Source of the DNA: Ginglymostoma cirratum
Lineage: Eukaryota
NCBI GenBank assembly: GCA_024137785.1
Contig: JAHRHZ010000145.1
Location: 35,791,435-35,855,434 of the forward strand
DNA: 64,000 nt
Direction: 5' to 3'
The position numbers were made by a program, and so were the translations under genes. Of this stretch, positions 501 through 33,700 are shown one piece after another; position 1 is the stretch's first letter; each line of letters opens with the position of its first letter. The notes below the pieces were generated by a model, which had not been told where the DNA came from, searched no databases, and saw only the letters and a program-made list of their open reading frames with translations.

Positions 501-779
501 AACCTGCAAATATTATTGAGAAAGCAGAATCTATTAGTGTAACTGTAGGAGAGCCAGCAACATTGGACTGCAGTTTTACAGGAACACCAGAAATTAAAGC
601 AAGATGGTTTAAGGATGGCACAGAGCTGGTGACTGGTAGAAGATATAAAATCAGTGTTACTAATAAAGTGACAAGTTTAAAGATCCGGACTACTGAGAAG
701 GAGGATAGCGGTGAATATACTTGTGAGGTTGCGAATGATGTTGGAAGCAACAGTTGCAAAGCTTCTATTACAATATTGG
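501..779 (+). CDS. ttn: titin Ig exon, super-repeat position 4 (EPANIIEKAE...)
   Basis: cag|AA...G|gttggt, 279 bp, phase 1/1. Confidence 0.95.
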
Positions 780-3700
780 GTTGGTACCCTTGTTCTTCCA
801 TTTTATTGCATTTACTGCAATACTAAAAAATAAAATGTAAATATCTTGCACAAGATTATAGCTTTTTCTTTCCCACTATGTGTTGGACAGATCGCATAGT
901 TCCACCATCATTCAAAAGAAACTTGAAAAATATGGATGGCATGAAAACATCTTTTGTTAAGATGGAATGCAAAATTGCTGGCTCTCTTCCAATGAGTGTG
1001 TTATGGTATAAGGATAACCAAGAGATAATCGCTAACCAAAAATACAAACTCTCTTATCATGATAATACCGCACAGTTGGAGATTCATCAATTAGAGATGG
1101 CAGATGGTGGAACTTACGTTTGCAGAGCAACAAATGCGGCAGGAACTGATCAAAGTAGTGGTGTCTTGACAGTGAAAGGTTGGAAATGTTATCTTAAATA
1201 TCTTAATTGTTATGCTAATTAACCAGTTAACCTAGTTTTATTTAGCCATCACAAGCATTAATTTTATCCAACTTAGTTTGTTATATTGACAAACATTCTG
1301 AGAATATAATGAGTTATACTTAGAGTTATTGATGGACTCTTGTCTTGCCATATCTTTTCAAAGATGCTTCTTCTCCTTTTATTTTCTTGCCATAACAACT
1401 GCAGTTTTCCTCTGGTAATTTCAGAGCCTCCATCTTTCACTGTGAAACCATTGTCCCAGGATGTTGTGCCTGGTTCCAAAGTACAATTTAGAAGTGTTAT
1501 GAGTGGAACACCTCCAATGACAATAAAATGGTTCAAGGACAGTAAGGAGTTGACATCAAGTAATTTATATTACATTTCAAAAGAAGGCTCATCAAGTTTG
1601 CTACAAATACATTCAGCAAAAGTATCTGATACTGGTGACTATACTTGTCAAGTCAGAAATGAAGTTGGCACAGAATCATGTTCTGCTACTCTTTTTGTCA
1701 AAGGTGGGGATTTTCTTGATAGCATTTCTATGAGACATTGTATACTGAGCCTTATTTTACAGTATGTCTTTCTTTGATGGCTTATGCACTCTCCTAGCTT
1801 CATTTTTGTAAATTCATCTTTATATTAATTGTTTCATTATTTTTCCCCATTGACAATCTGAATATTCTTTCAACACTTTTACTACTACGTTCATCTTATT
1901 TCTCTTAATGCAATTAGAAATGGAATGTTGTTGTTTCCAAAGTTCTATTTTATGGTCATGATGTGAGAGTTGGCTACAATAATTTATTTTAATTGGGAAT
2001 TTACATATACTCATATATGTATATATAAAACAGGATTATTGTAGCCCCATGAAGACAAGCGAGCCAAATACAATGTGTAAAATCTCGGGAATCAATTTCC
2101 ATTTACAGCTCTTTTTCCAGCTGGTTCCTCCTGTTTAAACTTCACCGGTCTCCAGGTTTCAAAAAGATCATCTTTGCTATTCCTTTATTAGTTGATGAAT
2201 CATAGATTTAATTATCTTTGCTTATTATACCATCCAGGAAAAGCAGCCCTCTTGACTGGCACCCTATCTGTAATTTTCAGCATTCACTTGCTTCACCATC
2301 AATGATCAGTAGGTACAACATCTTACATCCACAAGGTGCAATGAAGAAATTCACCAAGACTCCTCAATCAGCACTTTCTAAGCTACAACCTGTACCTCCT
2401 AGAAGGACAAGGGCAAACGATGCATAGGAACACCACCTTTGCATGTTACCCTCAAAGCCACATGCAAGTCTGACTTGGAGCTACTGTTCCTCCACTGTTG
2501 CTGGGTCAAAATCCTGGAAATTCCTCTCTAGCAGCAGTGTGGGTGTCCCAACAGCTCAACGACTGCAGCAGTTTAAGAAAGCAGCTCACCTTGTCAAAGC
2601 AAATTGGGGAAAGATAATAAATGTTGGCCAAGTTAGCAATGCCCATGCCAAACAAATACTTTTCAGAAATGAAAAGTAGAATTTGCTTTACTATAACAGA
2701 ATGTTCTATGTGGCATCAAACTTCATAATCCATAATTCCAAGAGGTGAATGTGCTATATGGTTAAGCAGGATCAATACTGAATGTCTAAGGTAATTAGTG
2801 TAACAATGAAATAGAATATTGAGAGTGAGGATTATGAAACAATATTCAGACAATTTTAGCTAATTACAGTGGAAACAAACATAGAGAATGTTGGAACAAA
2901 AACAGAAGTTGCTGGAACAGCTCAGCAGGTCTGGCAGCATCTGTGAAGAGAAAATCAGAGTTAAAGTTTTGGGTCCGGTGGCCCTTCCTGAGCTTTTCCA
3001 GCAACTTCTGTTTTTGTTCCTGATTTACAGCATCCACAGTTCTTTTGGTTTTTACAGAAAATGCTGGAAAAACTCAGCAGTTCCGGCAGCATCTGTGAAG
3101 AAACAAATCGAGTTAATGTTTTGAGACCAGTTTGACTCTTCTTCAGAACTGTTTTGCAAATAGGAGGCACACACAAGTGCCAATTTGACTACATCCCTAG
3201 CACCTACCTTCCCTTTAAATGAAATGCAGAATATATAAATTATAACTTAATAAGCTCACTTTATTTTTAAATGAGACTTATTCAAATTTGAGTTTTTGGG
3301 TTCGTCTTTACTCTATTAAAAAGAAAATGCCCACATATTTAAATGTACATGAATTTTCCAAGATATCAATGGTATAGAATATTGTTATTGGTTATGATTT
3401 GAAAAGGAATCTTTTGAAAAGGATCTTCCCAGGAAAATTATACAAATGTTTTAAAAATTGCATCTTATGCTCTTTAAAAGGTCAGTTGGAAATCAAAAGC
3501 AGATAACTTTTGTTGGAGCATATTTGTGATTAATAGGAGATCATGCCAGTCATCATGAGTTCCTATTCATCATATTCATTATCTTCATTGTGTGCACATA
3601 AAACCTTTTAGTTTTCTTTTTATTCAGTTCAATAAATTTTCATCTTATAGAGCCTCCACAGTTCATTAAGAAACCAGAGCGGACCATGTCATTACAAAAA

Positions 3701-6700
3701 GGAGGTTCAGTACGTCTTGAGTGTACAGTAACTGGCACGCCTGAAATCAAAGTTACCTGGTATAAGAAAGAAAGTGTCATTCACCCAAGCGACAAAATCA
3801 GGATGTCATTTGTTGACTCAGTGTCGGTCTTTGAATTGATTGATGCCAGTGTGGAAGACAGTGGACATTACACTTGCAGAGCAGAGAATGAAGCTGGTTT
3901 TGATAATTGCAATGTCATAGTTGCAATTAAAGGTGTGTAGCCGCAAACCACATGTTCAACTCAAATCTGACAATTTGTTCTGTCAAATCTTTCCAGTGTG
4001 ATGAGTTTCTAAATTGTTTTGATTTTTTTCTTTTAGAACCTCCTTCAGTTAGAAAGAAACTCGAACCTGTTGAGGTAGTAAAAGGCAATGATATCAATCT
4101 TGAATGTGAAGTGGATGGTACTGGCCCATTTGATGTCACTTGGTATAAAGACAATAAGCAGATTCGACCAAGTATAAGGTTCAAGATGTTCATTGGAAAA
4201 TCTTTATTTAGTCTTTCTGTTCAAAAAGCTGACAACTCAGACATTGGTGAATACAAGTGTGAAGTAACAAATGATGTGGGAAGGTGTTCTTGTGTTGCTG
4301 GAGTTAGGTTAAAAGGTCAGTTATCCAACAAAATTATTTATTCTTTAGACATTTTCAATAATTCCATCTTGCAGTTCATTCTTGACTTTATTGTTTTAGC
4401 TTGAATAAATACCGATTGTGATTTTATGTCTAATTCACAAAACTCTTAACTTTAAATCAGAACCTCCTTCCTTTGTGAAAAAGATTGAAAACATTACAGT
4501 ATTATCGCAAAGTGCAGCCAGTTTTACCAGCCAAATACAAGGATCGTCTCCAATACTTGTTACATGGATGAAGGACAAAGATGAAATCATAGAGGATGAC
4601 AATATTAAAATATCTTTTGAGAACAATATTGCTACACTGCAAATTGCTTCCGTTGGAGCAAGTGACAGTGGGAAGTACACATGCCAGGCCATAAATGATG
4701 CAGGAACAGAGAAATGTTTTGCTACTTTGTCAGTAACAGGTTAGTATGAGACATGGGATGTTTGTGAATTTCCATGAAGTGCCAAATATGCAAACAATGT
4801 CTTTCGCTTCCATCGATTGAGGAAGAATGGTTTTTCTTGCAGAACCTGCACAAGTCATAGAGAAGCCACAGCCGTTAAGTGTCACTTCAGGAACTGCAGC
4901 CATCTTAGAATGTGTTGTTACTGGTACTCCAGAACTGAAAGTAAGATGGCTCAAAAATGAAACTGAATTGACCTCCAGCAGGAAGTACAAAATAACTTTT
5001 GTGAACAAGGTGGCAATCCTAAGGATTCTGTCTGTTACTAAAGAAGACAGTGGCGAATATGTTTTTGAAGTTCAAAATGAATTTGGACAAAGCAGCTGCA
5101 AAACTACATTGACAGTCCTAGGTTGGTTTTCTTTATTCTTGTGTTGAAACTTTTTGAAGCGTATCTCAAAAATGAAACTTAGATGGAAGAGCTGAACTGA
5201 AAAGATTATATTTTAAAAGCACCAAAAACAGATGTTTTTGTGTCTTCCTGTTGTCTTCTAAATGTATGCAGTTGGCTAAAGACAGCACCTTGGTAACCTC
5301 TTCATATTCTTTTAAGATTATGTAATAATTTTCTTCATGCCTTCAGCAACTAGTTGAATAATAGTGTCTGTAAGTAAAATATGCCAAAACTTTCAGGGTG
5401 AATTTTAATGATTGGGGGGGTGTAATGATAGTGTCAGTGGTCTGTCTGACTGCTCGGATGGGAGGCATGGCCGTGATCCATTTGAATTGCTAGACTACAT
5501 GCCTGAACAGTGTCCTTCTTTACCTTGCTGGCTGAGGACTAGCACAATTTTGAGAGGGCTATTGACTGATGCATTCCGTAAGATAAGGAGGTAATGAGAG
5601 CAAGGGTGGATGGTACAGAGCCCGAGCTTGTAATGTCACACATATTGTTCTTGCAGAACCCAGCAGAGCACTCGTGATTCTACAGAAAAATGTTTTAGGC
5701 TAGTTTTTCAAGGGTCATCAGCTGCGCCATGAGATGTAATGAAGCAGAGTATGCACAGTGCACATCCTGTATGATATCCCATAAAATTGGATTAGATTCT
5801 AAGAAAATCATAAAATCACAATTCGCACGTACTCGCGGCTTGCATACTTGATTCTGCTGTGCACCCTGCAGAAGTTCATGGAAAGATTTGCTGGAGATGG
5901 ACCAGTCTGTGTGGTCTGCCACCTCTTATGAACTCCATTATCATCTCATTCCTACCAGTTGAAGTGGTTAAAATGTCCCTTTGATATTTTAGCTGATAGC
6001 TGATAGTCTATTTTGTTATTCTATGTTGGATAGATCGTATAATTGCTCCATCATTTTCAAGAAGTTTAAAGAAAATGGATAGCATCCTGGGGACATTGAT
6101 GCACATGGAGTGCAAAGTATCTGGTTCCCTACCAATCGACATTGTTTGGTACAAAGGTAACAAAGAGATATTTACTGGCCCCAAATACAAAATATCATTT
6201 GAAGAAAATACAGCACTTTTGGAGATCAAAGAACTTGAACTCACAGATGGTGGAAATTATTCGTGCAAAGCAACAAATACTGCGGGAGTCAGCGAATGCA
6301 GTGGATTCTTAACAGTAAAAGGTTGGAAGATCCTGTTACTCCAAACAGCTTTATCTTAAGATGCATAAAATGCTGGTTTTCCAGCTGTAGCATTTTCTCT
6401 TTTCTTCTGCAATGGTAAAATATCTAAATAAATTAACTGAATTTTCACTACTTAAAATATTTTAACAAATGATCAGTACTAACATGACAGGATAATGTAA
6501 CTAATCTTAGAATTTGTAGTTTTGTTTTTAACCTATCTGACCTAACTGAATGACATTTTCTTTAACAACTTTTAGAGCCACCAAGCTTTGTCCAAGAACC
6601 AGTATCCCAAGCAATTGTACTTGGTGCTACACTGCAGTTTAAGAGTGTCGTGAAAGGAACTCTTCCACTGATTGTCAAGTGGTTCAAAGATAACAGGGAA

Positions 6701-9700
6701 CTGAGGCCTAGTCCAAGATGTTCCATTTGGAATGAAGAAACAACACACTACTTTGAGCTAATCTCAGCGAAAATTTCCGATGCTGGTGTTTACAGCTGCC
6801 ATCTCAGCAATGAAACTGGATCAGTCACAAGCACTGCAGAAGTTTTCATCAAAGGTTTGCAATTCTTGTCAATCTGGTTGCAAATTAAGTCTTAGAAAGC
6901 ATTTTTAATAGCATAGTCTTCCTTCCCTAATTTTCTTCCTGAAAAAGAGTAAGTTTTATCTGAAGATCATTTTTCTCTTACGTATTAATCAATAGTATAA
7001 CAGTCGTAAATTTACTTGGAAATTCCAAAATTCAGCTGCATTACATTTAACTTTGTCAGAACCTCCAAGTTTTGTTAAGAAGCCAGCTCCTTCAGCAGCC
7101 CTGAAGCAAGGAGAATTTGCACGTTTTGAGTGCAAAATAACTGGTACACCTGAAATCACAGTTACGTGGTACAAAAATAACACAGAGATTAGAACCAGTG
7201 ACAAATACAGGACATCGTTTCAAAACACAGTGGCTGTGCTTGAGATTACTGATGCAAGTGTGGAAGACAGTGGGGAATATTCCTGTGAAGCACAGAATGA
7301 AGTTGGTGGTAATAGCTGCAACTTTTTGGTTCAAGTTAAAGGTGTGTATTATAATATCCTAAAGGAGATTTAACTCATTAGCTTTTGATTGTTTCCTAAA
7401 CCACATTGTTCACTTTACTCCTCAGAACCTCCCACATTTATAAAGAAACTTGAACCTGTTGATGTAGTTAAAAGTGATGATGTAACTCTTGAATGTGAGG
7501 TGACTGGTACAGCTCCGTTTGAAGTTACGTGGTATAAAGATAATAAGCCAATTCGACGTGGCAAAAAATGCAAAATAATCTTTGAAAATTCTTTAGCCAG
7601 TCTTACCGTTCTAAAGTCTGAAACTCCTGATGTTGGTGAATATACATGTACAATAAAAAATGATGTTGGCAGTTGCTCCTGCAGTTCTACAGTCAGTCTG
7701 AAAGGTTAGTTATGGCTTAATGTAAGAACCCTTCTGATCTTTATAGCAGCACTTCAAATGTTTAATGGAGAATGCATTGCTCAACTCATCAGCGAAACAT
7801 CCTTTTACATTGAAGCACATTTAACTAAAAGTTGTGAAATATATTCATGTAACCATTTGTTTTAAACTAGAACCCCCAGGATTTTTAAAGAAGATTGAAA
7901 GTGTAACAACGTTGTCAGGGAATTCTGTTGTGTTCCAATGTGTAGTCAAAGGCTCAAAGCCTATTTATGTAACTTGGATGAAAGACAAAGATGATGTCAA
8001 AGAAGATGGTAATATCTCACTGTCGTTTGAGAATAATATTGCTACTCTTCAAATAAGTACAGTTGGAGAAAATCATGCTGGGAAATATACATGTCATATC
8101 AAGAATGAGGCAGGAACTGAGAAGTGTTCTGCAACATTGCTGGTAGCAGGTCAGTGGGACATTAACTCAATAGTAGCATCCACTTCAATGACGTTGCCAA
8201 TTACAAATCAATTCAGATTCTTTGTGATCACCAACTGAAAATGAGATTCATAGCTGTCAGATATTGAATGGATTTTTTTTCCTTCATAGAACCAGCAAAA
8301 ATCATAGAACAAGCACAGTCACTCAGTGTGACTGCAGGAAATCCAGCAAGCCTGGAATGTACCGTAGCTGGTACACCAGAGCTAAAAGTTAAATGTTTGA
8401 AGGATGGTAATGAAATGGTACCAAGCAGGAAATACAAACTCAGCTTTGAAAATAATGTGATCAGCCTAAAGATTCCTTCTGTTTCTAATGATGATACTGC
8501 TGAGTATACGTTTGAGGTCAAGAATGAATTTGGAACCAGCATCTGCAAAGCTTCATTGACTGTATTAGGTTAGTGTTTACTTGCATTTAGAATTCACTTA
8601 GTTAAATTGCCGGGATCATTTGAAAACTTTGCTTATAAGGTCAGAATCCTGATCACAACCATAAATGTAAATAAAGGGTTTTATTAGTATAAATTTCCAG
8701 TCCTAACGAAAGTAGGCAAATTCATGCAGAGACTTTTAAAATAGGTTTTATAGTGCTTTTTGCTGAAACGTGAAAATAGTTGAGATAACAAGGTGTAGAG
8801 CTGGAAAGCTCTACAGAAATTCAGAAAGAAGGGGCTCGACCCGAAACGTCAGCTTTCCTGCTTCTCTGATGCTGCTTGGCCTGCTGTGTTCATCCAGCTC
8901 TACACCTTGTTATCTCAGATTCTCCAGCATTGGCAGTTCCTACTGTCTCATGAAAATAGTTGACCTGGTTGTACCGAGTATAAACATTGTTAAAATGAAA
9001 CATGAAGTCAAAGCTTATTATCTTGTACTTATGAAGTGAGGGCGAAGCAAAAACTTCAATTTCTTTTTATCAATGTTTAAAAGAAGTTTTGTCTTGAGTG
9101 TCTCAGAGAGTCTACTTCCTAATAAATCTGAATCTTTTCTGTTTAATTCAATATATCTTCTTATGAACAGTGGATTTTATTCATTTAGAAATACTTGTAG
9201 TTGACTGGTTCTTCATTCATCACTTCATCTTGAACAGATCAACAAATACCTCCAATATTTACAAAAAAGTTACGGAAACTGGATGCTGTTTTGGGATCTT
9301 TTGTACAAATGGAATGCAGAGCTTCTGGTTCACTTCCAATGAGCTTTACTTGGTATAAAGATTTCAAAATAATAACTTCTGGTGCAAAGTACAACATATT
9401 ATCTCAAGATAACGCAACAACTTTGGAAGTTAATAAACTAGAATTTTCTGATCATGGGAACTACATTTGCAAAGCAACCAATTCCGCAGGAAGTACTGAA
9501 TGCAGTGGTATCCTAAAAATAACAGGTGTGAAAGATAAACTTATTCTATTTCAAGTTTCTACTATAGCTTTTGCATTTTCCTCCACTAATTAAGCTTCCA
9601 AGTTTTGCATGATGCCCTACAAGGGGTGTGGGGCTGTTATTGGACTAATAATCCAATGGTCTAGGCGAATGCTCTGGGGATTCAGTTAATTCAAATCCAA

Positions 9701-12700
9701 TTAATGAAGTCTGGAATCACAAAGCTTGTCTCAGCTATGAATGTGTTAACTCTCAGTTACAGTTGCAAAAATCCATTTGGTTCACTAAGGTCCTCAGAGA
9801 AGGAAATCTGCCATTACCCGGTCTGGTCTACATGAGATTCCAGACCCACAGCAATGTGATAGATTCTTAGCTGCCTTCAGAAATGGGCCATCTTGTTCAA
9901 TAGCATCTAGGGATGGGAAACAAAAGCTGGCCTTACAAGAGACGTCCATATCCCCGAAAAGAATAAAGAAAACAAAAGGGCTGAATTCTTGGGGTTGAAA
10001 ATGAATGGGACTTGAAAGTGCCCGAGTGGAAAGCTAGTTTCCTGGTCCTGCTTACGATGCTGCCCATTTTTGCCAAAAGTTGAAGCAGGGCCTGGGAAGA
10101 TGGTACTCCGTGAGATTTGTTAAGAAGCTTGCTAAGCATACTCAAAGGGGAATATTTGGGCATTTGATTTTATTTGGGCTTAACTATTTGGAGACTAGCA
10201 TCCAGGCACAAGCCAGAAGTTCTAAACAAACTTGTGGGCTCTCAGTATCTCCAGTGGTGCATGCAAAGGTTGCTTTGCACAGGAGTTTCTTCCCCCTACA
10301 CCAGCCTCCCCTGCAGTGGTTGTCTGGCAATTGTAATTTCTTTTATTTAAACATTTAAGCAAAATTGGTAAGAACGAGCCCACAGGTTGCAGTGTACTAT
10401 CTGATACAGTTGGCTACTCTGTTCAAGCAGAAACACCTGTGAATAGCCTGCCAACTTCTACAGCCTGCCCACTGCATTAATTGAACAGAAAACCTTTCTC
10501 CATGCCAATTAAGGCAAAGTCCCAATGAAAATCTCAGTGAGTGATTGTGTCCTTAGAAAGGGGAAAGGGGATGGGTTTGAGACCTGGAAACAGTCATGAC
10601 TTTTGTTTCTTGCCCAGGGGAGAAGATCCAGCCCAAAATAAATAGTTAAAATTTGTTATGCAGTTCATGGTAAATCTGTGATTTTGTTTTTAATTGACCT
10701 TGTTCAATGTAAATCAAGTATTATAGGGATCCAATTGTAATATTCTTTTTCCTCACATGAATTATAGAGCCACCAAGTTTTGTGGAAAAGCCTGTAGCTC
10801 AGGAAACTCTGCCTGGATCCACAGTACAGTTTAGAAGTGTTGTGAAAGGAACCGCTCCACTGTCTATAAAATGGCTGAAGGATGGCAGGGAGCTGATGTC
10901 TGGAGCTGACTGTTCCATTTTAAGTGAAGGTTCAACAAGTTTACTTGAGTTGTTTTCAGCTAAAGTCTCTGATTTGGGTGACTATACTTGTGAAGTCAGC
11001 AACAAAGTTGGCACTGCTACTTCTACAGCAAGACTATTTGTCAAAGGTGTGTATTTTTGGTTCACTTATTGAACCATTGTGGGCTACTGTTGGAAAATTC
11101 TGTCTTCTTCAATTTTGCAAACTTTGCAAGTTTGCAAAGCTATTTTTCTCCGGTTATTTTTCATGTCAGTAATGTGTTGTCTTCTTTTATTCCTTCATAC
11201 TAATAGGTGTTTCATTATTCCTTTCTGTAGTGTATCTGTTTGTTCCAGCATTTTACATTTGTAACAATGCTTACTCCATTTTCTTCTCTAGGACCAATTT
11301 ACTTTGGCTTGTCTTCCTTTGCTTTTTTGTATCTTGCATGAGTGACATTGGAAAGAATTTTATCCCTCCACACACAGCTCAGAAGCTATCTGGGAGGTTG
11401 AAACGCCTGTTCAATTGATCTGGAAAGTGTTGGAGATGTAGTTGCCTGTGTTTCTTTTCACAATTGCCTTGTGTGAAAAGGCCAGAGGACAATCTTCCTA
11501 CCCAGAAGCCAATTGAGGCCCTTAATTGGCCAAAGGGCCCCAATCTGCCACCGTTGGTGTGCAACCAGCAATGGGTAGATAACATAAAATGTGAAAAACT
11601 CAGACGATAAATCTGAGCAGGTATCTTCTGGTCCGTTGGGAGTCTGGGGTTTGGGGTGAGGGTGTCCCAAGAAAGATACTATCCTTGAATGGTCTCACAA
11701 AAAAGTAATGCGCATGCCTAGGCTAGATACTAACAGCTGTCCCATCTTGATTGAACTAGACAGGGAGGCCACTGTGAACCTTCCCCACATAATGGTGAAC
11801 TTTTAACTTATTTCTTTGTTTTTGTATTTTGCACCGAAGATTTTGTACCCAGGTACGTTTGTACCTCAGATTGCGCTGGAAATGATGATTTTGTATGCTT
11901 TTCATTACACTCCTGTACTTCTGTACTTAAGTGCACGTGACAGTGACCCCCATTCTAATTCTACCTTGCTCCTGGGTACTGTACCCATAATCCTCTTCCT
12001 TGGCCTCCTGCAGCACTAGCAGAGGCCACCGCTCCCTGTAGTTCAGCCAATCCTGAAGAGCAGCCATCCGCTGGTTGGTTGGTGGCTCTTACAGGTCAGA
12101 AATTCTTTCTAAGGACGACCAGGACTCCAACTACAGTCGAATACCTGCGTGGTACTAAGGCAGGTCAGGGGGAATAGTGAGGAGAGCGTACAGCAAGGTC
12201 ACCGCTGCCTTTCCAGAGATGAGCCCCACCGTGATGTTGTATCGTTTCCTGCTTGGACTTGCTATTTGTAATGGAGTTTACTATGTTTTATTCTCCAGAA
12301 CCTCCATATTTTATTAAGAAATTAGATCCTGCAGCAATATTTAAAAAGGGAGAGACAGCAAATTTTGAGTGCAAAGTAACTGGAACACCTGAAATCAAAA
12401 TCTCTTGGTTCAAGAATTATCAGGAGATTAGTGCTAATCAGAAATACAGAATGTCATTTGTTGATTCTGTGGCAAACCTTGAAATTGCTAATATAAGCCT
12501 CGAAGACGGTGGGATTTATTCTTGTAAAGCACAAAACGAAGCTGGCAGCGAATCATGCGAGATGAAGGTTGCAGTTAAAGGTCTGTGAAAGTTTCTAGTT
12601 ACTTTTTCTGTTGGTCATTAATTGTTCTTTCTGAGAGTGTTGCAAGTTTTTTTTTTGGGGTAATTATAGACTCCTTCTGCAATCCATCACTTACATTGTC

Positions 12701-18700: not shown

Positions 18701-21700
18701 GGAATTTATACTTGCAGAGTAACAAATGTAGCAGGAAGTGATGAGTGCAGTGCCACACTTGTTGTGAAAGGTTTGAAATAAAATCTTTGTGTTTTCTCTC
18801 CATTTCTTATCATGAAAAACATCATTTGTATCATACTTTAATCTTAACAGACTTGCGTGAAATAATTGCTCGGAAAGCTTTGTAGTTGGATATTTTACAG
18901 TGCAAAAGTTGATGAATCTTTATGTGCTCTTCATTGCAACAAATATATTTTTCTTCAATGAATTTTAGAGCCACCAAGATTTATAGTAAAACCAAAGTCA
19001 CAGGAGGTTCCCCCCAATTCTGCAGTGCAGTTCAAGAGTGATGTAAAAGGAACACCTCCCCTGTCTTTCAAATGGTTTAAGGATGACAAGGAGTTAAACT
19101 CTGATGCTACGTGTTGCATAATGGCAGAAGGTTCATCCAGTTCTCTACAACTGTATTCAGTAAAACATTCCAGTACAGGATACTATACTTGCCACGTCAC
19201 CAATGATGTTGGCACAAATACTTGCACAGCAAAGTTATTCGTTACAGGTGTGCAATTTTTACGTGGTGTCGGTATATAGTAACAGTATCTTGTTTGTATT
19301 TCACTTGTTAATGTCTTTAAGTTGCTGAAAATTCTCAGCATGTACAGGTCTTCTTTCTTGTACTTTGTACTGCTAGTATCTTGTGTTCTTCTAGACATCA
19401 AACATATGCGATAATCTTACACCCTTTATCACATCAGTTCTACATTAGCTTCTTATACTCTTCGTGATTTCAAGAATGTATTGTCTTATACTCTGCATTA
19501 ACCCAGTTCTATTGAATGTTTTTATTGTATGTTACACTAAAATTATCTTAGATTCAGATTTGCCTTTGTAAACATTCTCTTACTGATCTCTGTTCAGTAT
19601 TATATTTCTTTTCGCATGTTTCACAATTCCAATTAATCCAGCATGGTATTGTTCTCGGAACCTTACCACTAAATGTCCTCTGTTTTGGTATCCTAGAGCC
19701 CCCATCTTTCATTCAGAAGCTGGAGCCATCCAAAGTACTGAAGAAAGGTGAATCGGCACACTTTGAGTGCAAAGTGACAGGCACACCTGAAATCAAGGTT
19801 TCATGGTTCAAGAATGACCATAAAATTAGTGCTGATAACAAATACAAAATGCGTTTCGATAAATCTGTTGCAGTTCTTGAAATCATTCATGCTGATCTGG
19901 AAGATAGCGGTGATTACATTTGCGAAGCTCAAAATGAAGCTGGCAGTGCAAGTTGCAATGTCACTTTTACTGTCAAAGGTACGTAGCTTTCATCAAGTGC
20001 TTAGAAATCATTCTAAAGCAAGTATCTTTTCTTCATGACTGCATAAATGAGACGAATTATAATCTTCCTACAGAGCCTCCAGTTTTCGTTAAAACACTTG
20101 AGACAGTTAATGCCATAAAAGGCTCTGATGTCGTACAGCAGTGTGAAATCAGCGGTACATCTCCTTTTGAAATTACCTGGTATAAAGACAAAAGGCAAAT
20201 CCGAGCAAGTAAAAAGTACAAAATTACTTATGAAAACCATGTAGCAAGTATTCATATTCTGAAAGTTGAGACACCAGATATAGGGGAATACATGTGTGTC
20301 GTCAAGAACGATGTGGGAGGTGACACTTGCATTGGCACATTAAATCTAAAAGGTTTGTAAACTTTCCAAATTTAAATTATCCTACTCTGACAATTTTTGG
20401 AAAAGAATTTTTCAGTTTGTGTCTCACAAGTAAAGAATATCTATTTAATTCTCCAGAGCCGCCAGTATTTGTGAAGAAACTTTCAAACATTTCTTCTGTG
20501 CTTGGAGAGTCTATAACTTTACAAGCTACCATTAAAGGCTCAGAACCAATTCATGTAACATGGATCAAGGAAAAGGAAGAAGTGAAAGTTGATGAGTATA
20601 TGACAACTAGCTATGAACAAAATACTGTTACTTTGCATATTGCAAAAATGGAAGCAGTTCACGCTGGAAAGTATGTTTGTCAAATTAAAAATGATGCTGG
20701 AATGCAAGAATGCATTGCTACAGTATCACTTCTGGGTTAGTGCCTGATGTCAGGTTTTTTTTTGTTATTTCTAGAATTTGGTTCATATTTAAGAGCATTG
20801 CTCAATATTATTTTAATTTTATTATGTTTGTCAAGAGCTTTTTTCATAAAAAGACTTTCTTTCAATTTAGAACCTGCCACAATTGTGGAAAAAGCGGAAT
20901 CTGTCAGTGTAAGTGCAGGAGATCCAGCAACTTTGGAATGCATTGTTAGAGGCACTCCAGAACTCAGAGTGAAATGGCTGAAAGATGGTCATGAGCTAGC
21001 ATCTGGCAGAAAGTATCAGATCAGTTTTATAAATGGAATTTCCAACCTAAAGATTCTGTCTGCAGAGAAGGCCGACAGTGGTCAATATACTTTTGAAGTT
21101 CAGAATAATGTTGGTAGTAGCAGCTGCAAAGCATCAGTCAGCGTCCTAGGTATGGTTTAGCCCTTTTTCTGTTTGATACTTTTTCAGGATTTCTTAACTG
21201 CCTGTGGATAAATCTTTTTTTCTAATTATGGCTTGTTGGTGTAACTCAAACAGATCGAATTATTCCTCCGAAATTTACAAGAAAATTAAAGAAAGTGAAT
21301 GGTATCCTGGCCTCTCCCATCCAGATGGAGTGCAAAGTGTCTGGATCACTACCTATTGCTGTGGCTTGGTTCAAAGACAGACAGGAGATTGTACATGGAG
21401 CAAAATATCAACTCACATTTGGAGATAACACATGTGGTTTGAAAATAAGTACTTTGGAACTGTCAGACGCTGGTAATTATACATGTAAAGCAACAAATGC
21501 TGCAGGAAGCGATGAATGCAGTGGTGTCTTGACTGTGAAAGGTCAGTTTTATTCTCAGTGAAGTTTTTGGTATTTTCCTCACTCTTTATATTATTATCAC
21601 AATGCAGATTTTTTAAGAATCTGAAAACCTAAGTAGTTTATAAAGAATGTAGCCGCAAGATTGAAACTTAAATCAAACGAAATATACTGTTCAAAAATCA

Positions 21701-24700
21701 GATGTGAAACTAATGTGCTCCATCTTAAATAGTCAGTTATATACAAGGTACTAAAAGGATAAAGAACTTTTAATCTAAACCAATATCTTCAATCATATTC
21801 AGAGATAGTGGGAACTGCCGATGCTGGACAATCTGAGATAATTTTTCAGAAAATTTTCTGAAGAAGGGTCCAGACCCGAAACGTCAGCTTTCCTGCTCCT
21901 CTGATGCTGCTTGGCCTGCTGTGTTCATCCAGCTCTACACCTTGTTATCTTCAATCATATTACCTTCTATACTCCATGGATGTAGAAGATTAACCAATTG
22001 GTCTGAGTACTTACCCAGGCCGACATATCTTCAGCTTTCTGTTCACTTCCAGTAAGGTTGTTTCTTCAAATATTCTTAAACCTCTCCAGCCTTCACAGAT
22101 TCCCCAGTAAACGTCGGCACCTCCAAGTCTTATGTCTAGCCAATTCACGTCAGAAAACTCTTGCTTCTAATATTATTTAACTCTGGAACCTTATATCTAA
22201 AATGTGATCTCTCTCTTTCAGTCTCTCCCATCTTTCTTTAATCACATTTCCATATGACTCTCTGCCTTCTTTGCTTGCTGATTTTGTCTCCCCTTGATAA
22301 AATATTTCAAATGACTCTCAGTCTTTCTTGGACAAACTTCTGTCAAGTTTACCAGCTTAGATTTTGCTCCATTACCCTGTTATGCCCATTCATCAGTCTC
22401 CCCATACAATCCCCCCATTTGGTCCTTTGGCAGTGTTTGGCTTAAGGAACCCATGCTGTAGAAGCCTCTGTCTGTGGCTGACACAGAAGTCCTCAGGGCC
22501 CCTAAATTTCAGATTCTACTAAAGGCTTATGCCTCTGATGACAGTATATTGGATCTATTTGCCTCTGCTAGGACTAGACAGATGCTAGCAACTGAAGCAA
22601 AATAAACCAAACTATTCCTACATTATTTTGAGGTCTCACACTAATTTCTCCCAATCAGCTTTGACATTCCTTAGTGATGCTGCTTCAGCTTTCTTTACAG
22701 CTTCGGCCACATACTTACTCCTCTTTCCTGCAAATTTTGCATGGAAGGCAAATCACATGCATTGCCACTTTTGAATGCACCACCAAATCACAGGAAATAA
22801 TATGATCTGGGGTGGCTTTGTACATTCAGCTCCTGTTCCAGGTATCCTTCCACAAGATGTGAGTTGGATTTCCTTGACCTGATTCTTGATGCATCCCGTT
22901 TCCTGATGGAGTGTAACAAGTCCTATGGGTTATCTCACCCTGCATTGATGTTATTGAAATGTTCTGCTAGTGAGCGCGTTGGATAAGTGAACTGGTTTAT
23001 GTACTGCTCAAGCTTTCTCAAATATCTGTTTTTAGCATGAAGATTGATTTTTTTCTGGTCGGTATACGTCCACTAACTCAATCTTACCTTCGATTTTTGA
23101 AATGGCATTAAAAACTTCTGGAATATGGTGACATGTACCTGCCTTTAACTAAGTAGGCTACTGGGTTAGTTCCTTATTGACTGGCATTGCCTCCATCCTG
23201 CAGTTGCCTGTGGTATTAAATCCACATTTTCTCTCCTCATTTGGAGGGTGTGGGAACACCATTGTGGAGCTCCCAGTGTGCTACACCCTTTCAATTTGGT
23301 ACTTTGTATTTACCACATATGGGAGTGTACTATGGTGCCTAACACTGTATCCATCCCTAATGTCCCCTATGCTGTTTTTCCTAGAGGCCTCTCCAGGTGG
23401 GGTGTTGTCAGTGAGCACTGATACAGCTGGTGCCATTTCCAAAATCTTCCTCCATCTAAAATACAATCAGAATTATCAAATATACATGTACTGATCCTTG
23501 AGTTGGTAACCAGTTGTTTTGATGACTACTTTCCTCATAAGATTCATAAGTTGCTGTCAAAGCTGTCCTTCTGTTGTCTGTTTTTGCACCCCACTCCCAT
23601 CAGATTGTTCCATTTATTTCACTAAAATAGCATTCTGGGGGCGGGGGTCTTTTATGAGCCCCAGAGTGGTAATGCTTTGAGTGTAATGTTCAACACCACA
23701 GGTACAAATGGTGTACTCATGGTGTACATTATTATACAGAGTCATAGCTCTCTTTATCAGCACAAATCCCTTTTGAGGTCCCTCTGTCTGGGCAGAGCAG
23801 GGGCTCTCTCCTGGAGTAGTCATGGTGAATGGTCTGGTTCGATGTTCCATTTGTGCTCGAGTGACTGGAAGCTCTCCATTCTTGTTGCCTTGCTCATCCT
23901 GCCATTTGAACCCAATGATTTTAGCGGTCACACTCTCCTCACCATTCTCCTTGCAGTCTACCTGTCAGGTACACACAGTTATATTTTCACACTCAGAATG
24001 CCCAATCCTGACCTGATCCCAGTGCCATCTCTGTTACATGGCCGCACCACCTTCCTAAGTCAGGAATTGATATCTGCACGGGCATTCGATGCAAGGGTAG
24101 TTATTCACAGTCACTGCAATCAGTTGCTGTACAGTCGCCCTATCTCTGGTTCTGATCGGCTTGGAAGGGATTTCTTCTTAGGGGCCTATAACCTCAATCT
24201 TGTCATGTGTCACCCTTGTAAAATATACCAAGCACTTTCCTTCAGTGAAGACAAATGCTCATTGGTCTACCCTGTGATCATCTGGAAAGTAGAAAATATT
24301 GGGCTACCCCCGGTTACTGGGTTCTCAGTTATTTAATTCTATCCTTACTCCTTGTTACTCTTGTAACTGTGATTGTGATCTTCTGATGGACTTTATTTTT
24401 AACTAAAACAACTTCCTTTGTTATTCCTGCTGCATGTACGAGGTTCCCAATTATCTTTCCATGTTGTATTTATCCTTCCCTGAATTAATGTATAACCTTG
24501 TCTGCTCCAGGCAGTCATGCACTACTCCAAATACATTCCTATAATCTGTGTGTCCGTTGGTTTTCTTCCGTGATGTTTTAGGGATTGGCAAGTGCAACAA
24601 ATCTATGAACTGGCTTTAATTAGTTTTTATAAACATTATCTGTGACCAAACAATGTTCAGGGTAATCAGTTTGTTTAAAGTGCATATTGTTTGCCCTCAC

Positions 24701-27700
24701 ACAGTCATCTTTTCCTATCAGCAATCTGTGGGTCTCATGTTTCCTGGGCAACTGTGTTCCCTGGGAGACGAAGACATTTGAATTGCCTTTTTTTAACTTT
24801 GGTATGGAACTTCCTTCATAGATGTGGCAATGTGTTTTATTTTTAAAGTCATACTGTCATTCTTATCAAGTAAGATGAATCTTTGAATCTTGGTTATTTT
24901 CCCTAGTCCTGTAACCACTTTCACAGGATCTTAGATTGATCGTCCAGTATTTTCAAACTCTTCAATTACGTTTCTTTTTTGAATTTAAATCACCTACAAA
25001 CGTTTGTTTCTAAGTTTGGATTAACAACATTCAAAACATCCTCCTCTAGTCTTTTAAGAACTGTGGCAGGAACCACATTCTTCAACCTCACAGTTCCCTT
25101 TTTAATCCCAGGATCTATCCAATCAAACACTGAGCTAGTTACAATTTTGCCAAACATTTAAAATAAAGCACATTTTCCCTTTAAACCAAATTATAAAGTT
25201 TCGAATTTCACATACACCAAAAGTAATCCAGTAGATACACAGAAAAGAGTAGCACATATTTTTTACAGAAAGGAAAACAGAAGTAAATCAATTATGTCAC
25301 TGATCCCAATTCATTTTTCTTCAAATGTCTTTCAACTATAATTAAAATCTGAAGAGCAATAAATCTCATAGCAGGCAAATCTCAAGACATTCTACAGCAG
25401 CCTATAGTTTGTATAATCCCTCAAATCCTCATTTTTATAATGACTTAATTTAGTTTCCTGTTCTTTAATCTACACCCATTTAATGCAGTTTTGCTCACAG
25501 ATGCTTCATACACATTAATATTTAATTCAACAACTTCCCAAAATCTCAAAGAGATCAAACAACAAAATGAGCTTACACACACATGAGTTGGTTTGCCTTT
25601 TCTCCTTTTACAGCAACGTTCCAGCTACAGTGGTACTTCCAATGTAATTTCTGTTAATCGTGCTCTAAACCTTGTTTCTGTCCCTCAGCTTGCTTCTAGA
25701 TGTTTCATTAATTTGTTTCTGCATTTGTGTATATTTGTGGATGTGGATTTGCATTTAGCATTAGATACTTGCACTGATTGAGAATTGTTTACCAAACAGA
25801 AAATGGAAATAAATGGGTCATTCTCAGATTGGCAAGCTGTGGCTAGTAAGGAACATTCCAGGCTGGGTGCCCAGTTATTGTGGGGTGCCCACAATCTATG
25901 TCAATGGTTTAGATGTGGGGACCAAATGTAATATCTCCAAGTTTGCTGATAACACAAAATTAGGTGGGAATGTGAGTTGTGAAGAGGATGAAAAGAGACA
26001 TAAAGGGTATTTGTATAATTAAGGGGATGGGCAAAAACATGACCAATGGAATAGAATGTCAAAAACTTTGAAATTAAGCACTTTGATAGGAGAAACACAA
26101 ATTAAGGAACGTGTTGATGTGCAAGGAGCATGGGAGTCTTTGTTCATAAGCCAATGAATCTATGCTCAGTAATTATGAAGATAAATGATATGATTCATTA
26201 GATTAATCATGGGAAGAGTGGGATATATGTTTGAGGAGAGTTTGAGGATACAGGGCCTATATTCATCAGTGTTGAGAAGAATGAAATGTGATCTCATTGA
26301 AGCACAGAAAATTCTTACAGACCAAACAGGATAGATGAAGGAAGAACATTTTCTCTGGTTGTGTGTGGTGGGGCAGGGATCCAGAACCACTGGACATAAG
26401 TTTTAGAATTAAGGGTAGGCCATTTAGAATATGCTGAGAAAGAATTTCTTCACTCAGAAGGTGGCAAATATTTAAAATTCTCTTCCCAGACGTCTGTGAA
26501 AGCTCAGTCATTAGATATAGTCAAAACAGAAATTGACAGATGTCTAGAAAGGAAAGGTGTTAAGAGATATATGAATAATGCAGGAAGAACAGCAACGTTT
26601 GAGTTGAATGACAGATCAGGCTCCTATTTCAATGTTCCTGTAACTGGATGTATGAATTTGCCAGGCTTCTTGCAGAGGGGCAGTGACACCAATATTTGAT
26701 GTCTGTGACCTTAGACAGAAAATGGAAAGACATTAACCAGAACTCTAGCTGTCACTTTTGAGAGACATCAGTTTAGATTTTAGCTGAGGAAAAGGTCAAG
26801 CCTTGGTCATTGCCTTGAACAAATGATCAAATTGCTGGTGACAGCCTTTCTGGCTTCTGCATGAAGAATGATCTCTTGATCGAGGGACTAGACTGTTGCC
26901 ATTATGTGTGGATTAGCATGGGCCATTGCCATCAGGAAGAAAGGTGACAGAGGGGTAAAAATTGTGAGCAAAGAGAAAAACTGATCTTGTTTTGTAACAA
27001 AAATCATGGTCTTTACATTTAAATTTCTGATAAATTTATTGCTTAATGTTACATTGTACTATTTTTCTTTGAACTTTTTAGAACCACCTTCATTTATTAG
27101 AAAACCTGATTCTCAGGAAGTTTCACCTGGTTCAAATGTGAAATTTACAAGCATTGTTACTGGAACAGATCCATTAAAAGTATCATGGTTTAAAGGTACT
27201 ACTGAACTGGTAGCAGGAAGGCAATGTCATATTTCTTTAAGAGACTCAACAGCAGTATTAGAACTACTAAATGTGGAATCATCCCAAAGTGGAGACTATA
27301 TCTGCCAAGTCAGTAATGAAGCTGGCAAAGTTTCTTGTACAACAAAATTGTTTGTGAAAGGTTCGTAAAACACAAATTTAAAGAAATAAATTCAATATTT
27401 TGCTTGTGTTGGCCTTTTTGAGAACTGTTTTCATCTGTGTCTTTACCAGAACCAGCAGTGTTCCAGAAGAAGTTGAACGATTCTAGTGTTGTACTGGGGA
27501 AGTCAGTTTGTCTAGACTGCACGTACACTGGTACCCCAGAAATCAAAGTCACCTGGAAGAAAAATGGATTAGCTATATTACAGTCAGACAAACATATTTT
27601 AACTACTACTGAAACATCTTGTATTTTGGAGATTCTCAACTGTACTAGAGATGATGATGCAAAATACTCTTGTGAGGTAGAAAATGATGCTGGGATGGAC

Positions 27701-30700
27701 ACTTGTCATGCTGAAGTGAAAGTATTAGGTTTGTTAAACTCACTGGTTTCTATTAGTCACTCACTTTACATCAATATTCTGTTATTTTCTTTATACATAT
27801 ATATAATATGCATAATCTTTCATTGTTGCTTTCTTGCTTTTATCTCAGAACCACCAACGTTTGTCCAACATTTACAGCCTCTGGAAATAACATTAGGAGA
27901 TCCAGGATTTTTCGAATGCAGACTTGTTGGAACACCTGAAATTAAAGTGTCTTGGTACAAAGGAGACACGAAACTGAGAGCCACCCCTAATTGTAAAATA
28001 GAGCTTGTGAACAATATTGCAAGACTGGAATTGAAGAAAACAACTTTGAGTGACAGTGGAGAATTTATATGCAAAGCTGAAAATAAAATAGGGACCTGCT
28101 TATCAAAGGCCATGCTCACCATTCAAGGTGACTTTACTTAACGGATTCATTTGATATCTGTTCTTGGCAGATTGGCATATGTCTGCATTTTATACATTTT
28201 CTGTTTGAACATTTTAACTATACTGTGGTTGTTAAAAAAAATCCTATATTACTGTGTGATTAATGTACCCTTTAATTGTCTGTTTTACAGAACGTAAAAT
28301 TGCACCTTCTTTCACAAGGAAAATGCAGGGAATAGAAGGAACTCTCCATCTTCCAGTGACATTTGAATGTCATATTTCTGGTTCAGCACCAATTGAAACT
28401 ATTTGGTTTAAAGATGGTGTAAAACTAACTAGTGATGAAAATGTACTTATATCCTTCATAGGGAATGTAGCAACTCTTAAAATTCTTAAAGCTGAGATGC
28501 ATCATGCTGGTGAATACACTTGTAAAGCTATAAACATGGTTGGAGATGCTTCTTGCAGTTCAAGACTAACGCTGAAAGGTTTGTTGAGTAAAATATTTAT
28601 TAATTATCTTCTACTTCTTGTCTTTATCTTACGTCCTCATTTTATAGTGTTTAAACTTGAATATCTACTTCTTTTAACTATCATTACTAGACACAATTAC
28701 CTTACATTTAATAATATGACGACAGAAAATAATTCTTTCTTATTATATTTTTAGAGGCGAGGGTGGCCCCTGTGTTTGACAAAAAATTAGAGCCCATGGA
28801 AGTTATCACTGGGCAAAGTGTAGAACTTGAGTGCCATGTAACTGGCTCTTCCCCAATTAAAGTTATTTGGCTGAAGGATGGCAAAGAGATTCGTTCAAAT
28901 ATGAATTATAAGATATCTTTTGTGGAAAATACACCTCACTTGACAATTCTAAAAGCAGACAAGGGAGACTCTTGTCAGTACATTTGTGAGGCTAGCAATG
29001 ATCTTGGAAAGGACTCAACGCAAACACAAGTGACTGTAAAAGGTATTTCTTAATATCAGCCATTGTTCTGTTTCTCCCAGCCCAGAAATCCAGGCCAGGC
29101 TTTATTCATTAGCTGGAAGAATATTGCTTTTGTATGTTTTATTTCTTCATTGTGATTATTTTTTCTGATGATTTACTCAGTTTTAGTTACATTATGCATC
29201 TGAGATTGTTCTCTTACAGGCAATTACTTAGAAAACAAATTGAAACTGTGAAAAGTAACATTAAATGTGATGAAAATCTTTTCAATCTGTATTAATGGTT
29301 CTTAATTTTCACAAACTTCCACCATCCATCATCCATCTTCAAAAATATTTTGAGGTTTTCGGTTTTTAATAGATTCCACTTGATGCAGTATAACTTCACT
29401 GAAGTAATGAAGAAATATATCTGACATTTGTAACATTGATTCATTTTGTTGTGCCTATCTGTTTCAGATCGTAAAATTCCACCAAGCTTTACTAAAAGAC
29501 CTCTTGAACAAATACAGGATGCAGAAGGAAAAGCTATAAAACTTGAAGGCCGAGTATCTGGTTCACAACCAATATCTGTAACCTGGTTCAAAGATGATCA
29601 AGAGATCCTACAAACTGAAAATTATGAATTGTCTTTTAAATATAATGTAGTACTACTGAACATTAAGAAAGCACATCTCACTGATACTGCTGTTTATACA
29701 TGTAAAGCATCCAATGAAGCAGGAACTGCAGTATTTACTGTGTCTGTACTGATCACAGGTTAGTGATGAAGCCAATTTTTATTTATATAACATTGCTTGG
29801 TAACTGCATGCAGAAACTAATGTTGGCAAATGCTGCTATTGCCTATTTAGTGAAATATATTGGCAACTCTTTAAAGCTGGCTTGACATTCTTTTTTAGTC
29901 TTAGGTCTAGCTGGCATTGTAAAACCTGACATGTTGTCAGTTTTTAATCAACATTTCATTTAAATCTTATCTTCCTAGCAATGGTCTCTTATGGAAAATA
30001 TCTAAACACTGTTGAATGTCAACTAAAACTTAAATACAAGCTGCTTTGAATGGTTTTAACATTTTGCTAAGTTCTGAGGCTGCAAGTTTGGAAGATTAGC
30101 TTGGCTACATCTTTTCCTGCCTGCTGCCGTGATAATGTTGAACTCTCACTAAAGTGGTATGAGTTCAAATCTCACTCAACAGTAATTCAGTCTCTCTTTT
30201 TTTGTCTTTGCACAAGTTTTTCCTTTTCTTAGACAGGTCCCTGGATGAAACATTATGTTGTATGAAGGTGCTAAACACCTCCAAAAAAAATTTCCCAACA
30301 TCAACGCTTACGTTGTTGGCAAATTATAAGGTGCCGTTCATAATATCTGTGAAGTAGCCTCTGACACAAACTGCTTAAATCTCCCAGATGAAAGAGGAAA
30401 TTTGATGATGGGAAGCAACAGTGGGTAACCTCAAAGGGAGAGGGGCTATGCACTGTCTAAACTAAATGGTTCAAGCAATCTTTGATTGATGCGGGCGCAT
30501 TTTCCATTTTAGATACTGATATGTATTTTGTTGTTTTAGAGCTTATAGTGCCTCCTGTCTGCGACATACCTCTTAAACCAAAGACAATAACCGAAGGAGA
30601 ATCTTTGCAGCTTAGCTGCCATGTCCATGGATCTGAGCCAATTAAGATACAGTGGTTTAAAGACAGGAAAGAAATGAAGCCATCTGAAAGATTGAATTTC

Positions 30701-33700
30701 ACCTTCAAGGATGGTACAGCTGCCCTAGAATGTAAAACATGCGCTAAAACAGATAGCGGTGACTACCTATGTAAAGCTACAAATGAAGCTGGAAGTGTTT
30801 CTTGCAAAGCCAAACTAACAGTCCAAGGTACGGGAGTGTTGTGAAATAGGTTATCGTGGCCAGCATATTAAGGCTAAAAGCTCTTATTAATCATACTTGG
30901 TAAAGCGTATCCAACTTCTTCAGTCTCACAGCATGAAGGAAAAGTTCATGCAGTTTTGAGCTCCTTGAAGTATTAAAGCCATATTAATAGTGTCAAAGCC
31001 AGGCTCTTGCATTGGTCAAATATGCCTACATTGTGAATAGTAATTGTTTGCTGGTCAAAAATTCTAAAGGTATTTTGGCAGATCTTGCAACCTCTTGAAT
31101 CAGACCTCTTGTTGAGCTAGGCATGGAACATTTTTTAAAAGAAGAGAAAATGGCTTCTTACTTTTGAATTTTTAAACAAAGAATTAAACAAAAAGCATAG
31201 TTCTGGTTCATATTTTAGCGCTTATAGTTTCATATTGAATTAATTGTATTTTTCCCAGACTGAAAATATAATTAAACTCTTCTTTGTTGCCATAATATTT
31301 ATTGTCACTTTGGCGTTTCAAATGCTGCCAAAAGCTCTTTATTTGATATTTTATTTCCAGTGTCTTTGACCGCAGTGTTAAATATGATTTTGTTAAATAA
31401 GAATGTGGTACAAAAGTTAGGTTATTTTTAAACAGATGATCACATACAGACATAATGTGAACATGTACCTTTTTTTTAATTAGCTAACAGGATGAGGGCA
31501 TTGCTGGCTGGGCCAGCATTTATTGCTCATCCCTAATTGCCCAGAGGGCAGTTCAGAGTCAACTACATCACTGTGGGTCTGGAGTCACATGCAGGCCAGA
31601 CCTATAGCAGTTTTCCTCCCTAAAGGACATTAGTGAACCAGATGGGTTTTTTTTCCCCCCTGACAATGGATTCACGCTCATTATTAGTTTCTTAATTCCA
31701 GATATTTTATTGAATTCAAATCCCACCATTTACTGTGATAGGATTTGAACCTTAGTCTCCAGATTAACAGTCCAGCTATAATACCTCTAGGCCATCACCT
31801 CCCTGGTGGCGGTTTGTAAATTTTTCATAGGATGGTACATGGGATGTGTTAGAGTAGTTTTCCATATTGTCAAAGAAATATCTTACTGTTATCTGTTCTG
31901 AATTGTTAATGCTTGTTGTGCATATTTGTCAGAACATCATGAAAGTTTAATTCAAAAACTTCACATATACCTTGGCCATCCCTAGATGAACAAACATAAT
32001 AAAAGCATTCCATCTTCATGTAGCTTAGGTCATCCACCAACTGATGTTGAATTAGATGAAATATAAAATCAAACATCCTACAACCTCCATGTTTAGCAAA
32101 TTTAAGCAATATCAAAGGAAAATCACACCCAATACATCACACTCTGCACAAACATTGCATCATTGTGATTGCTGAATTTATGGACAGTTATTTAGTACTG
32201 CACGAAACTACAAAGTATTCGATGCAATTTCTTGTTCAAATATTGATGGCATTGGTGTAACATAGAATCCTGCACCTAAATTCAGATTCAAACCTGTCCT
32301 GACTGCAGATTTAAATGGGAGGAACTGGGTCCTGCTTCTCCTTTGCAGGCTCAGGTCAGACTCGGTTTCATTGTACATTGTACAGACTCAGTACATTGCA
32401 CAAAGTTGAAACTACATTGAGGTAAGGTCATATTTCTACTGTAATGTATCCTGAAGCGCCTGGCCAGAATATAAAATAATCTTTGTTATTGTAACTGCTT
32501 TAAATGTTAGTTTAAAAAATCCAATTATGTACACATTGTTTACTCATTTGTATATTCAGCTTGTTTCCTAGTAAGAATGTTGACATTGAAAACTAAAGCT
32601 ACAATGTAACATTCTTTTAACTTGTTCTGGTTTAGAAAAAGCTGTAGCAAAGAAAGTGGTTTCTCCACCAAAGGCAGACAAGATCTTCTTCATTGAGAAA
32701 CCAAAGAGTGTGAAAATAACAGAAAGTAAGTGCAGCGTGGATATTTCTTCTCATGCATTCTGATTATTAAGATGAAACATTTCTGAAGTATGTAAAAATT
32801 GTCAAAGCAAAAAATTACTAAATAATTACAACGCCCAAACTACTGACTGTTGGCTAGAAGGTATTACGGTTTAAATTTTAGCCTGAAAGTAGATTAATTT
32901 TCATTCAAGAGGGAAAAAAATGTAATCATACCCATTATCTCAATCAGGGCACCTCGGCCAGTAAGGGTCTTGAGCAAGGTGGGAGGGGTTGATGGTCTCT
33001 GGACTGAGATGAGTGAAGAGAGGAGGTGAAATCTGTGAAATTCATGACCACAATTAGGCTTTGGAGGCCAAGTCCCTGAATATTTTGAAGAAAGAAATAG
33101 ATGTCTAGACACTGAAATTGAGAGTGGGAACATGATGTTGACAGTCAGGATCAGTCTCAGAGCAGACTCCATAAGCTAAATGGCTTACTCTTCCTCCCAG
33201 TTTCTACTTTTCTAAGTGGCAAATGGAATGCCTAAAGCCTCCCACCTCACAGCAATAACATGCAGGGACCAGGCTAAGCATGTTTTGGGTAAAATGTCTG
33301 CCCCTTAGAGGGAAGAAAGGGTGGCATCCTGTGGGTGACATGCTGGAGTGGGTTGCCCTGCTTGCACATGGGACACCTCCATGATTAACATGCTCCCAAA
33401 TTCCTTACAGCCACTTCAAAGTAGCCCTTTGAAAAATGGCCTTTAAATTCTGGGCTGCCTTCCACTGCCCAGCATTTTATGGCACTGCTGGTAGATTGAT
33501 GTGTGTGAATGCTCCTTGACTGGGCAGGGTAAGGACCTCATTTCTTTAAGTTTAAGGGCATGTGGCTTATGGAACCATACCTCTGCACCCCCCCCCCACC
33601 TCCCTGCGCCAAACACACATGCTACAGGGGGTCTGCAAAATTCAGCTACCTGAGTTGTCTACGTTTTTCATCACCTAGTACATTAAATAAAGTGCATGTC

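What the first reader, a model, noticed from the sequence alone, without database searches (positions are those of the whole stretch)
501..30827. Different I-band spring design: at least five six-Ig super-repeats but one visible ten-Ig unit
Seen: exon lengths and sequence types cycle 282-279-279-279-288-279 through units at 501-1703 (partial), 3651-6854, 7060-11046, 12299-16883 and 17218-19247. A single unit with distinct variants (GGDTCIG; KKLSNIS..LQATIKG..AGMQEC) and four extra domain types then runs 19697-29042, followed by 291- and 288-bp exons and N2A. Recalled: mammalian skeletal titin has three six-domain and three ten-domain super-repeats here. Inference: this lineage lengthened the Ig spring by amplifying the 6-mer, while the 10-mer was amplified separately in the lineage leading to mammals (or lost here). 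This would be independent evolution of titin extensibility.
Basis: partly seen in the sequence, partly recalled or inferred. Interest (0 to 1): 0.7.

Follow-up and report, generated by a model that had tools for sequence, protein, structure and literature searches.

The report
Shark titin spring, six short repeats
This is the elastic part of the muscle protein titin in what is likely a shark or ray, built from six short six-domain repeats (two domains inferred across an assembly gap) and one ten-domain repeat, a design already published for cartilaginous fishes.

Summary
All 37 Ig exons lie at the stated coordinates with the stated length cycle. One more complete six-mer lies upstream. The gap at 17114 holds about 1,280 bases in two runs of a near relative, with an Ig exon start at one edge and an exon end at the other. 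A ray titin model has exactly two domains there. The segment is therefore 3 + 6x6 + 1x10 + 2 = 51 Ig domains. Hanashima et al. 2025 (PMC12241362) report the same 6+1 design in elephant shark, 8+1 in whale shark, 3+1 in zebrafish and 3+3 in human, and draw the same conclusion of independent lengthening. My unit tree agrees and adds two small refinements. The extra six-mers predate the chimaera-elasmobranch split. The ten-mer triplication is shared by elephant and alligator, so it is not mammal-only. This is ordinary chondrichthyan titin.

The parts
501..1703 (+). 6-Ig unit 2, exons D-E-F (A-C lie upstream of the window)
   Evidence: groups with Callorhinchus unit 2 (99.9/100) and bony-vertebrate unit 2 (97.1/99)
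3651..6854 (+). 6-Ig unit 3, exons A-F
   Evidence: groups with the A-B domains of Callorhinchus unit 3 (91.3/93)
7060..11046 (+). 6-Ig unit 4, exons A-F
   Evidence: groups with a Mobula birostris unit (100/100)
12299..16883 (+). 6-Ig unit 5, exons A-E (F in the gap)
   Evidence: 72-85% identical to Mobula hypostoma domains
17114..17123 (.). Assembly gap; about 1,280 bases in a near relative, inferred to hold exon F of unit 5 and exon A of unit 6
   Evidence: bridging contigs in runs X1 and X7, two studies; Mobula has exactly F, A here
17218..19247 (+). 6-Ig unit 6, exons B-F
   Evidence: groups with the last Callorhinchus six-mer and a Mobula unit (100/100)
19697..29042 (+). Single 10-Ig super-repeat, exons A-J
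   Evidence: sister to all bony-vertebrate ten-mers (100/100); H best matches the first domain of PDB 3B43
29468..30827 (+). Two C-terminal Ig exons of the middle-Ig segment (291 and 288 bp)
   Evidence: matched by the same two domains in elephant, alligator, arowana, bichir
34790..38562 (+). N2A Ig exons (outside the finding, downstream anchor)
   Evidence: tblastn of the alligator tail, 53-77% identity

Best explanation
[quoted passage not shown] History: the jawed-vertebrate ancestor likely had three six-mers and one ten-mer. Block duplications of six phase-1 exons added three six-mers before chimaeras and elasmobranchs split, likely from the third unit. Tetrapods separately multiplied the ten-mer. 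Both routes give a similar length (51 domains here, 53 in human per PMC12241362). Function (inferred, not tested): stiff Ig runs with occasional hinges straighten at low force. The 288-bp exons add three N-terminal residues, which would lengthen the linker before E in every unit and before I and J in the ten-mer.
For: Exon map and position clades. Gap size 1,280 in two bridging contigs, with exon edges in the loose ends. Mobula model runs U5 A-E, F, A, U6 B-C. Only six F-type exons were found genome-wide, all at this locus (150 of 227 candidates scored). Architectures of other vertebrates. Unit tree and AU tests. Published identical design and tissue splicing in elephant shark (PMC12241362). 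Carpenter's-ruler model in review PMC3859903.
Against: The gap was closed only in a relative that differs at a few percent of sites, not in this genome; only about 30 letters of each loose end were seen. The grouping of U3-U6 with bony-vertebrate unit 3 is weak (93/78; U3-U6 as one clade 93/51). Callorhinchus units 4 and most of 3 and 5 were not among my sequences. Comparison proteins are automated, partial gene models. No expression or mechanics data exist here for this species.
Confidence: 0.93

Rival explanations
1. The gap hides further units, giving seven or eight six-mers as in whale shark, or extra ten-mers.
For: Whale shark has eight six-mers (PMC12241362). The gap is an unsized 10-N placeholder.
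Against: Single contigs bridge it with 1,280 letters in runs X1 and X7; F plus one more six-mer plus A needs at least 2,250 exon bases. Mobula has two domains there.
Confidence: 0.03
2. The ancestor had three ten-mers and this lineage lost two, or eroded them to six-mers.
For: Six-mers resemble the first six positions of the ten-mer (33 of 34).
Against: Bichir, arowana and icefish models have one ten-mer. The window ten-mer lies outside the clade of all tetrapod copies (100/100). Forcing U4 with tetrapod T1 or U5 with T2 is rejected (deltaL 296 and 271, AU p<0.001).
Confidence: 0.02
3. The ancestor had six six-mers and bony vertebrates lost three, so the shark state is ancestral.
For: U3-U6 monophyly is weakly supported (93/51). 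Units are about equally divergent (53-61% over B-E) and introns share no unit-level similarity.
Against: U1 and U2 pair one-to-one with bony-vertebrate units 1 and 2, and no single one of U3-U6 pairs with unit 3. PMC12241362 infers a three-unit ancestor.
Confidence: 0.08

Closest known systems
Elephant shark (Callorhinchus milii) connectin middle-Ig segment, Hanashima et al. 2025, PMC12241362
   Same: 3 + six 6-Ig + one 10-Ig + 2 domains = 51; orthologous domains 61-79% identical where compared.
   Different: Another species (likely an elasmobranch); no architectural difference found. Isoforms were not tested here.
Whale shark connectin (same paper)
   Same: Expanded six-mers, one ten-mer.
   Different: Eight six-mers against six here; whale shark sequence not examined by me.
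Amniote titin middle-Ig segment (human per the paper; alligator P0010, elephant P0013, PDB 3B43)
   Same: Same ten position types, same flanking domains, same domain spacing pattern.
   Different: Three six-mers and three ten-mers; J is followed by A of another ten-mer, whereas here J is followed by the terminal pair.
Ray-finned fish titin (arowana P0011; zebrafish per the paper)
   Same: One ten-mer.
   Different: Only three six-mers.

Membership tests
Vertebrate titin middle-Ig segment | Tandem I-set Ig domains homologous to titin I-band domains | tested here: met
   Top PDB hits are titin 3B43, 2RIK, 2RJM; homologue hits are titin-like models
Vertebrate titin middle-Ig segment | Flanked by three leading Ig domains and by two trailing domains plus N2A | tested here: met
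   i27-29 upstream match Callorhinchus 64-77%; N2A from about 34790
Vertebrate titin middle-Ig segment | Position-specific 6-Ig and 10-Ig super-repeats | tested here: met
Chondrichthyan-type design (6 or more six-mers, one ten-mer) | Six or more six-mers | tested here: met
   34 exons seen plus 2 inferred in the gap
Chondrichthyan-type design (6 or more six-mers, one ten-mer) | Exactly one ten-mer | tested here: met
   G-J occur once between i27 and N2A; gap too small for more
Chondrichthyan-type design (6 or more six-mers, one ten-mer) | Segment kept in skeletal muscle and mostly spliced out in heart | not tested
   Shown for elephant shark in PMC12241362; no RNA data laid here
Amniote-type design | Three ten-mers | tested here: not met

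The most novel reading that the evidence does not exclude
Two refinements of the published story. First, six six-mers is the ancestral chondrichthyan state, reached before chimaeras and elasmobranchs split, so whale shark's eight is derived. Second, the ten-mer triplication is amniote-wide (elephant and alligator copies pair one-to-one; Xenopus models show two copies), so it cannot be a mammal-specific adaptation such as for the diaphragm. Sharks would then reach nearly the amniote spring length with fewer long linkers (about 11 in 51 domains against about 14 in 53), which predicts a stiffer low-force spring.
Probability: 0.6. Interest if true: 0.25.

Novelty: already known. Interest (0 to 1): 0.12.

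Why it matters
It adds a further cartilaginous fish with the published 6+1 design and shows that the count is stable from chimaera to this genome. The only fresh point is timing: ten-mer triplication is shared with alligator, which weakens the mammal-specific functional story offered in PMC12241362. Chicken titin papers cited there may already show this; I did not read them.

Tried and rejected
Search of runs: no RNA holder listed, so expression was not assessed. The whole-genome search with an F exon found no displaced copy on another contig (150 of 227 candidates scored). Intron-against-intron BLAST found only dispersed-repeat matches and no unit-level similarity, so the duplications cannot be dated from introns and no transposon cause was shown. 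The first AU test used fast constrained searches and too few replicates; it was repeated with fuller searches and an unconstrained fast control, with the same outcome. The single-domain tree does not resolve the order of duplications. The primary I65-I70 structure paper was not obtained; I used a review. No earlier scan finding was returned. No human, gar, coelacanth, skate or whale shark titin was among the proteins I analysed, so elephant, alligator, turtle, newt, bichir, arowana, icefish, two rays and Callorhinchus stood in.

Full report
Observation. The window lies at G000:C145:35791435-35855434 in a 4.36-Gb genome. A splice-site scan plus two manual placements recovered all 37 Ig exons in 501-30827, each AG/GT-bounded and open, with the length cycle 282-279-279-279-288-279. 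I fetched 120 kb upstream. It holds a leading Ig exon, a 564-bp open exon with two domains, one complete six-mer and the A-C exons of the partial unit. Of 34 six-mer domains, 33 best match the same position of the ten-mer among ten types. All 34 fall into six well-supported position clades, and positions G-J occur only once. N2A follows from about 34790.

The gap. Contigs of four public runs were laid on the gap in each of two calls (five runs in all). In X1 and X7 (organism A, two studies) one contig covers both flanks with 1,280 letters between. X4, X11 and X12 gave loose ends or one flank only. The loose end after 17113 reads as an acceptor followed by a PPSF-type Ig start. The one before 17126 reads as an exon end with a donor like that of the A exons. 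An extra six-mer would need at least 2,250 exon bases and does not fit. Independently, a Mobula hypostoma model has U5 A-E (72-85% identical), then one F and one A, then U6 B-C. The segment is thus 3 + 36 + 10 + 2 = 51 domains, 49 seen and 2 inferred. The runs differ from the window at a few percent of sites, so this is a relative's gap size.

Organism. Orthologous domains are 76-87% identical to Heptranchias, 66-85% to Mobula and 61-79% to Callorhinchus models. An elasmobranch is likely; I did not identify the species.

Literature. The first paper search returned Hanashima et al. 2025, PMC12241362. I read parts 1-4 of 5 of the text (abstract to methods and the start of the references), not the figures or the supplement. 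It reports six 6-Ig plus one 10-Ig super-repeats in elephant shark (e27-e77), eight plus one in whale shark, three plus one in zebrafish and three plus three in human. It concludes that cartilaginous fishes and mammals lengthened the segment independently. It also reports that most of the segment is spliced out in heart and that i36-41 is skipped in skeletal muscle. Its Fig. 4 may already show the unit orthologies I give below. I saw passages only of PMC12198301 and PMC9529554, and passages plus section 8 of PMC3859903. A search for connectin, 10-Ig, super-repeat, chicken and tetrapod (12 of 447 listed) showed no other paper on the timing. The chicken papers cited by Hanashima were not read.

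Comparison. Two homologue searches returned 8 and 120 listed proteins. Arowana is 3x6 + 1x10. Icefish and bichir end in one ten-mer. Alligator has three ten-mers. Elephant has two plus the end of a third. Turtle has 3x6, one ten-mer and the start of another. Two Xenopus models show two incomplete ten-mers. These are automated, partial models.

Unit tree. I concatenated positions A-F for 34 units from the window and 11 proteins (558 columns, LG+F+G4, midpoint root for drawing). Left out were the Xenopus, Crotophaga, Brachyhypopomus, Clinocottus, Phrynosoma, Acipenser and Paralichthys models and five small fragments. Ten-mers and six-mers separate (100/100). The window ten-mer is sister to all bony-vertebrate ten-mers, and tetrapod copies form a clade (100/100) in which elephant and alligator T2 pair (99.6/100) and T3 pair (100/100). 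U1 and U2 pair with Callorhinchus and bony-vertebrate units 1 and 2. U6 groups with the last Callorhinchus unit (100/100) and U3 with its third (91.3/93). The link of U3-U6 to bony-vertebrate unit 3 is weak (93/78). AU tests reject mammal-only ten-mer duplication (deltaL 108), elasmobranch-only origin of U3-U6 (99), U4 = T1 (296) and U5 = T2 (271), all p<0.001. The Mobula F and A domains that fill the gap are 74% and 68% identical to the Callorhinchus F and A at the same place.

How it likely works. From established titin biology, as in review PMC3859903, the poly-Ig chain behaves as stiff segments with occasional hinges that straighten at low force. Every exon here is phase 1, so blocks can be duplicated or skipped in frame (shown by the sequence). 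The 288-bp exons carry three extra N-terminal residues, and PDB 3B43 shows the same longer spacing at H-I and I-J (aligned starts 5, 101, 198, 290, 384, 477). That these long linkers are the hinges is recalled from von Castelmur 2008, which I could not read. If so, a six-mer chain has fewer hinges per domain than a ten-mer chain; this is a prediction only.

Verdict. Real, correctly described, and already known. Interest 0.12.

Noticed in passing
window 8290-8568 (unit 4, domain D): The core tryptophan of the Ig fold is replaced by cysteine (KVKCLKDG against KVKWLKDG in unit 6). Heptranchias and Mobula birostris have the same change, so it is not a sequencing error; it may be a mechanically weaker domain shared by elasmobranchs.
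   Followed up: partly
window 7426-7704 and 14426-14704 (B exons of units 4 and 5): 77% protein and 82% DNA identity, far above the 52-59% of the other positions of the same two units. Suggests old gene conversion or constraint limited to B; Mobula U5B is also 72% identical to U4B.
   Followed up: partly
G000:C145:35782143-35782706 (upstream of the window): The second and third leading Ig domains lie in one 564-bp open frame without an intron, an exception to the one-exon-per-domain statement in PMC12241362.
   Followed up: no
window 13404-14263: Intronic fragment that looks like a LINE by recalled motifs; an inverted 78% copy lies about 300-700 bases upstream of the window. No link to unit boundaries was shown.
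   Followed up: no
window 44800-57200: Short PEVK-like exons appear in open frames downstream of N2A.
   Followed up: no
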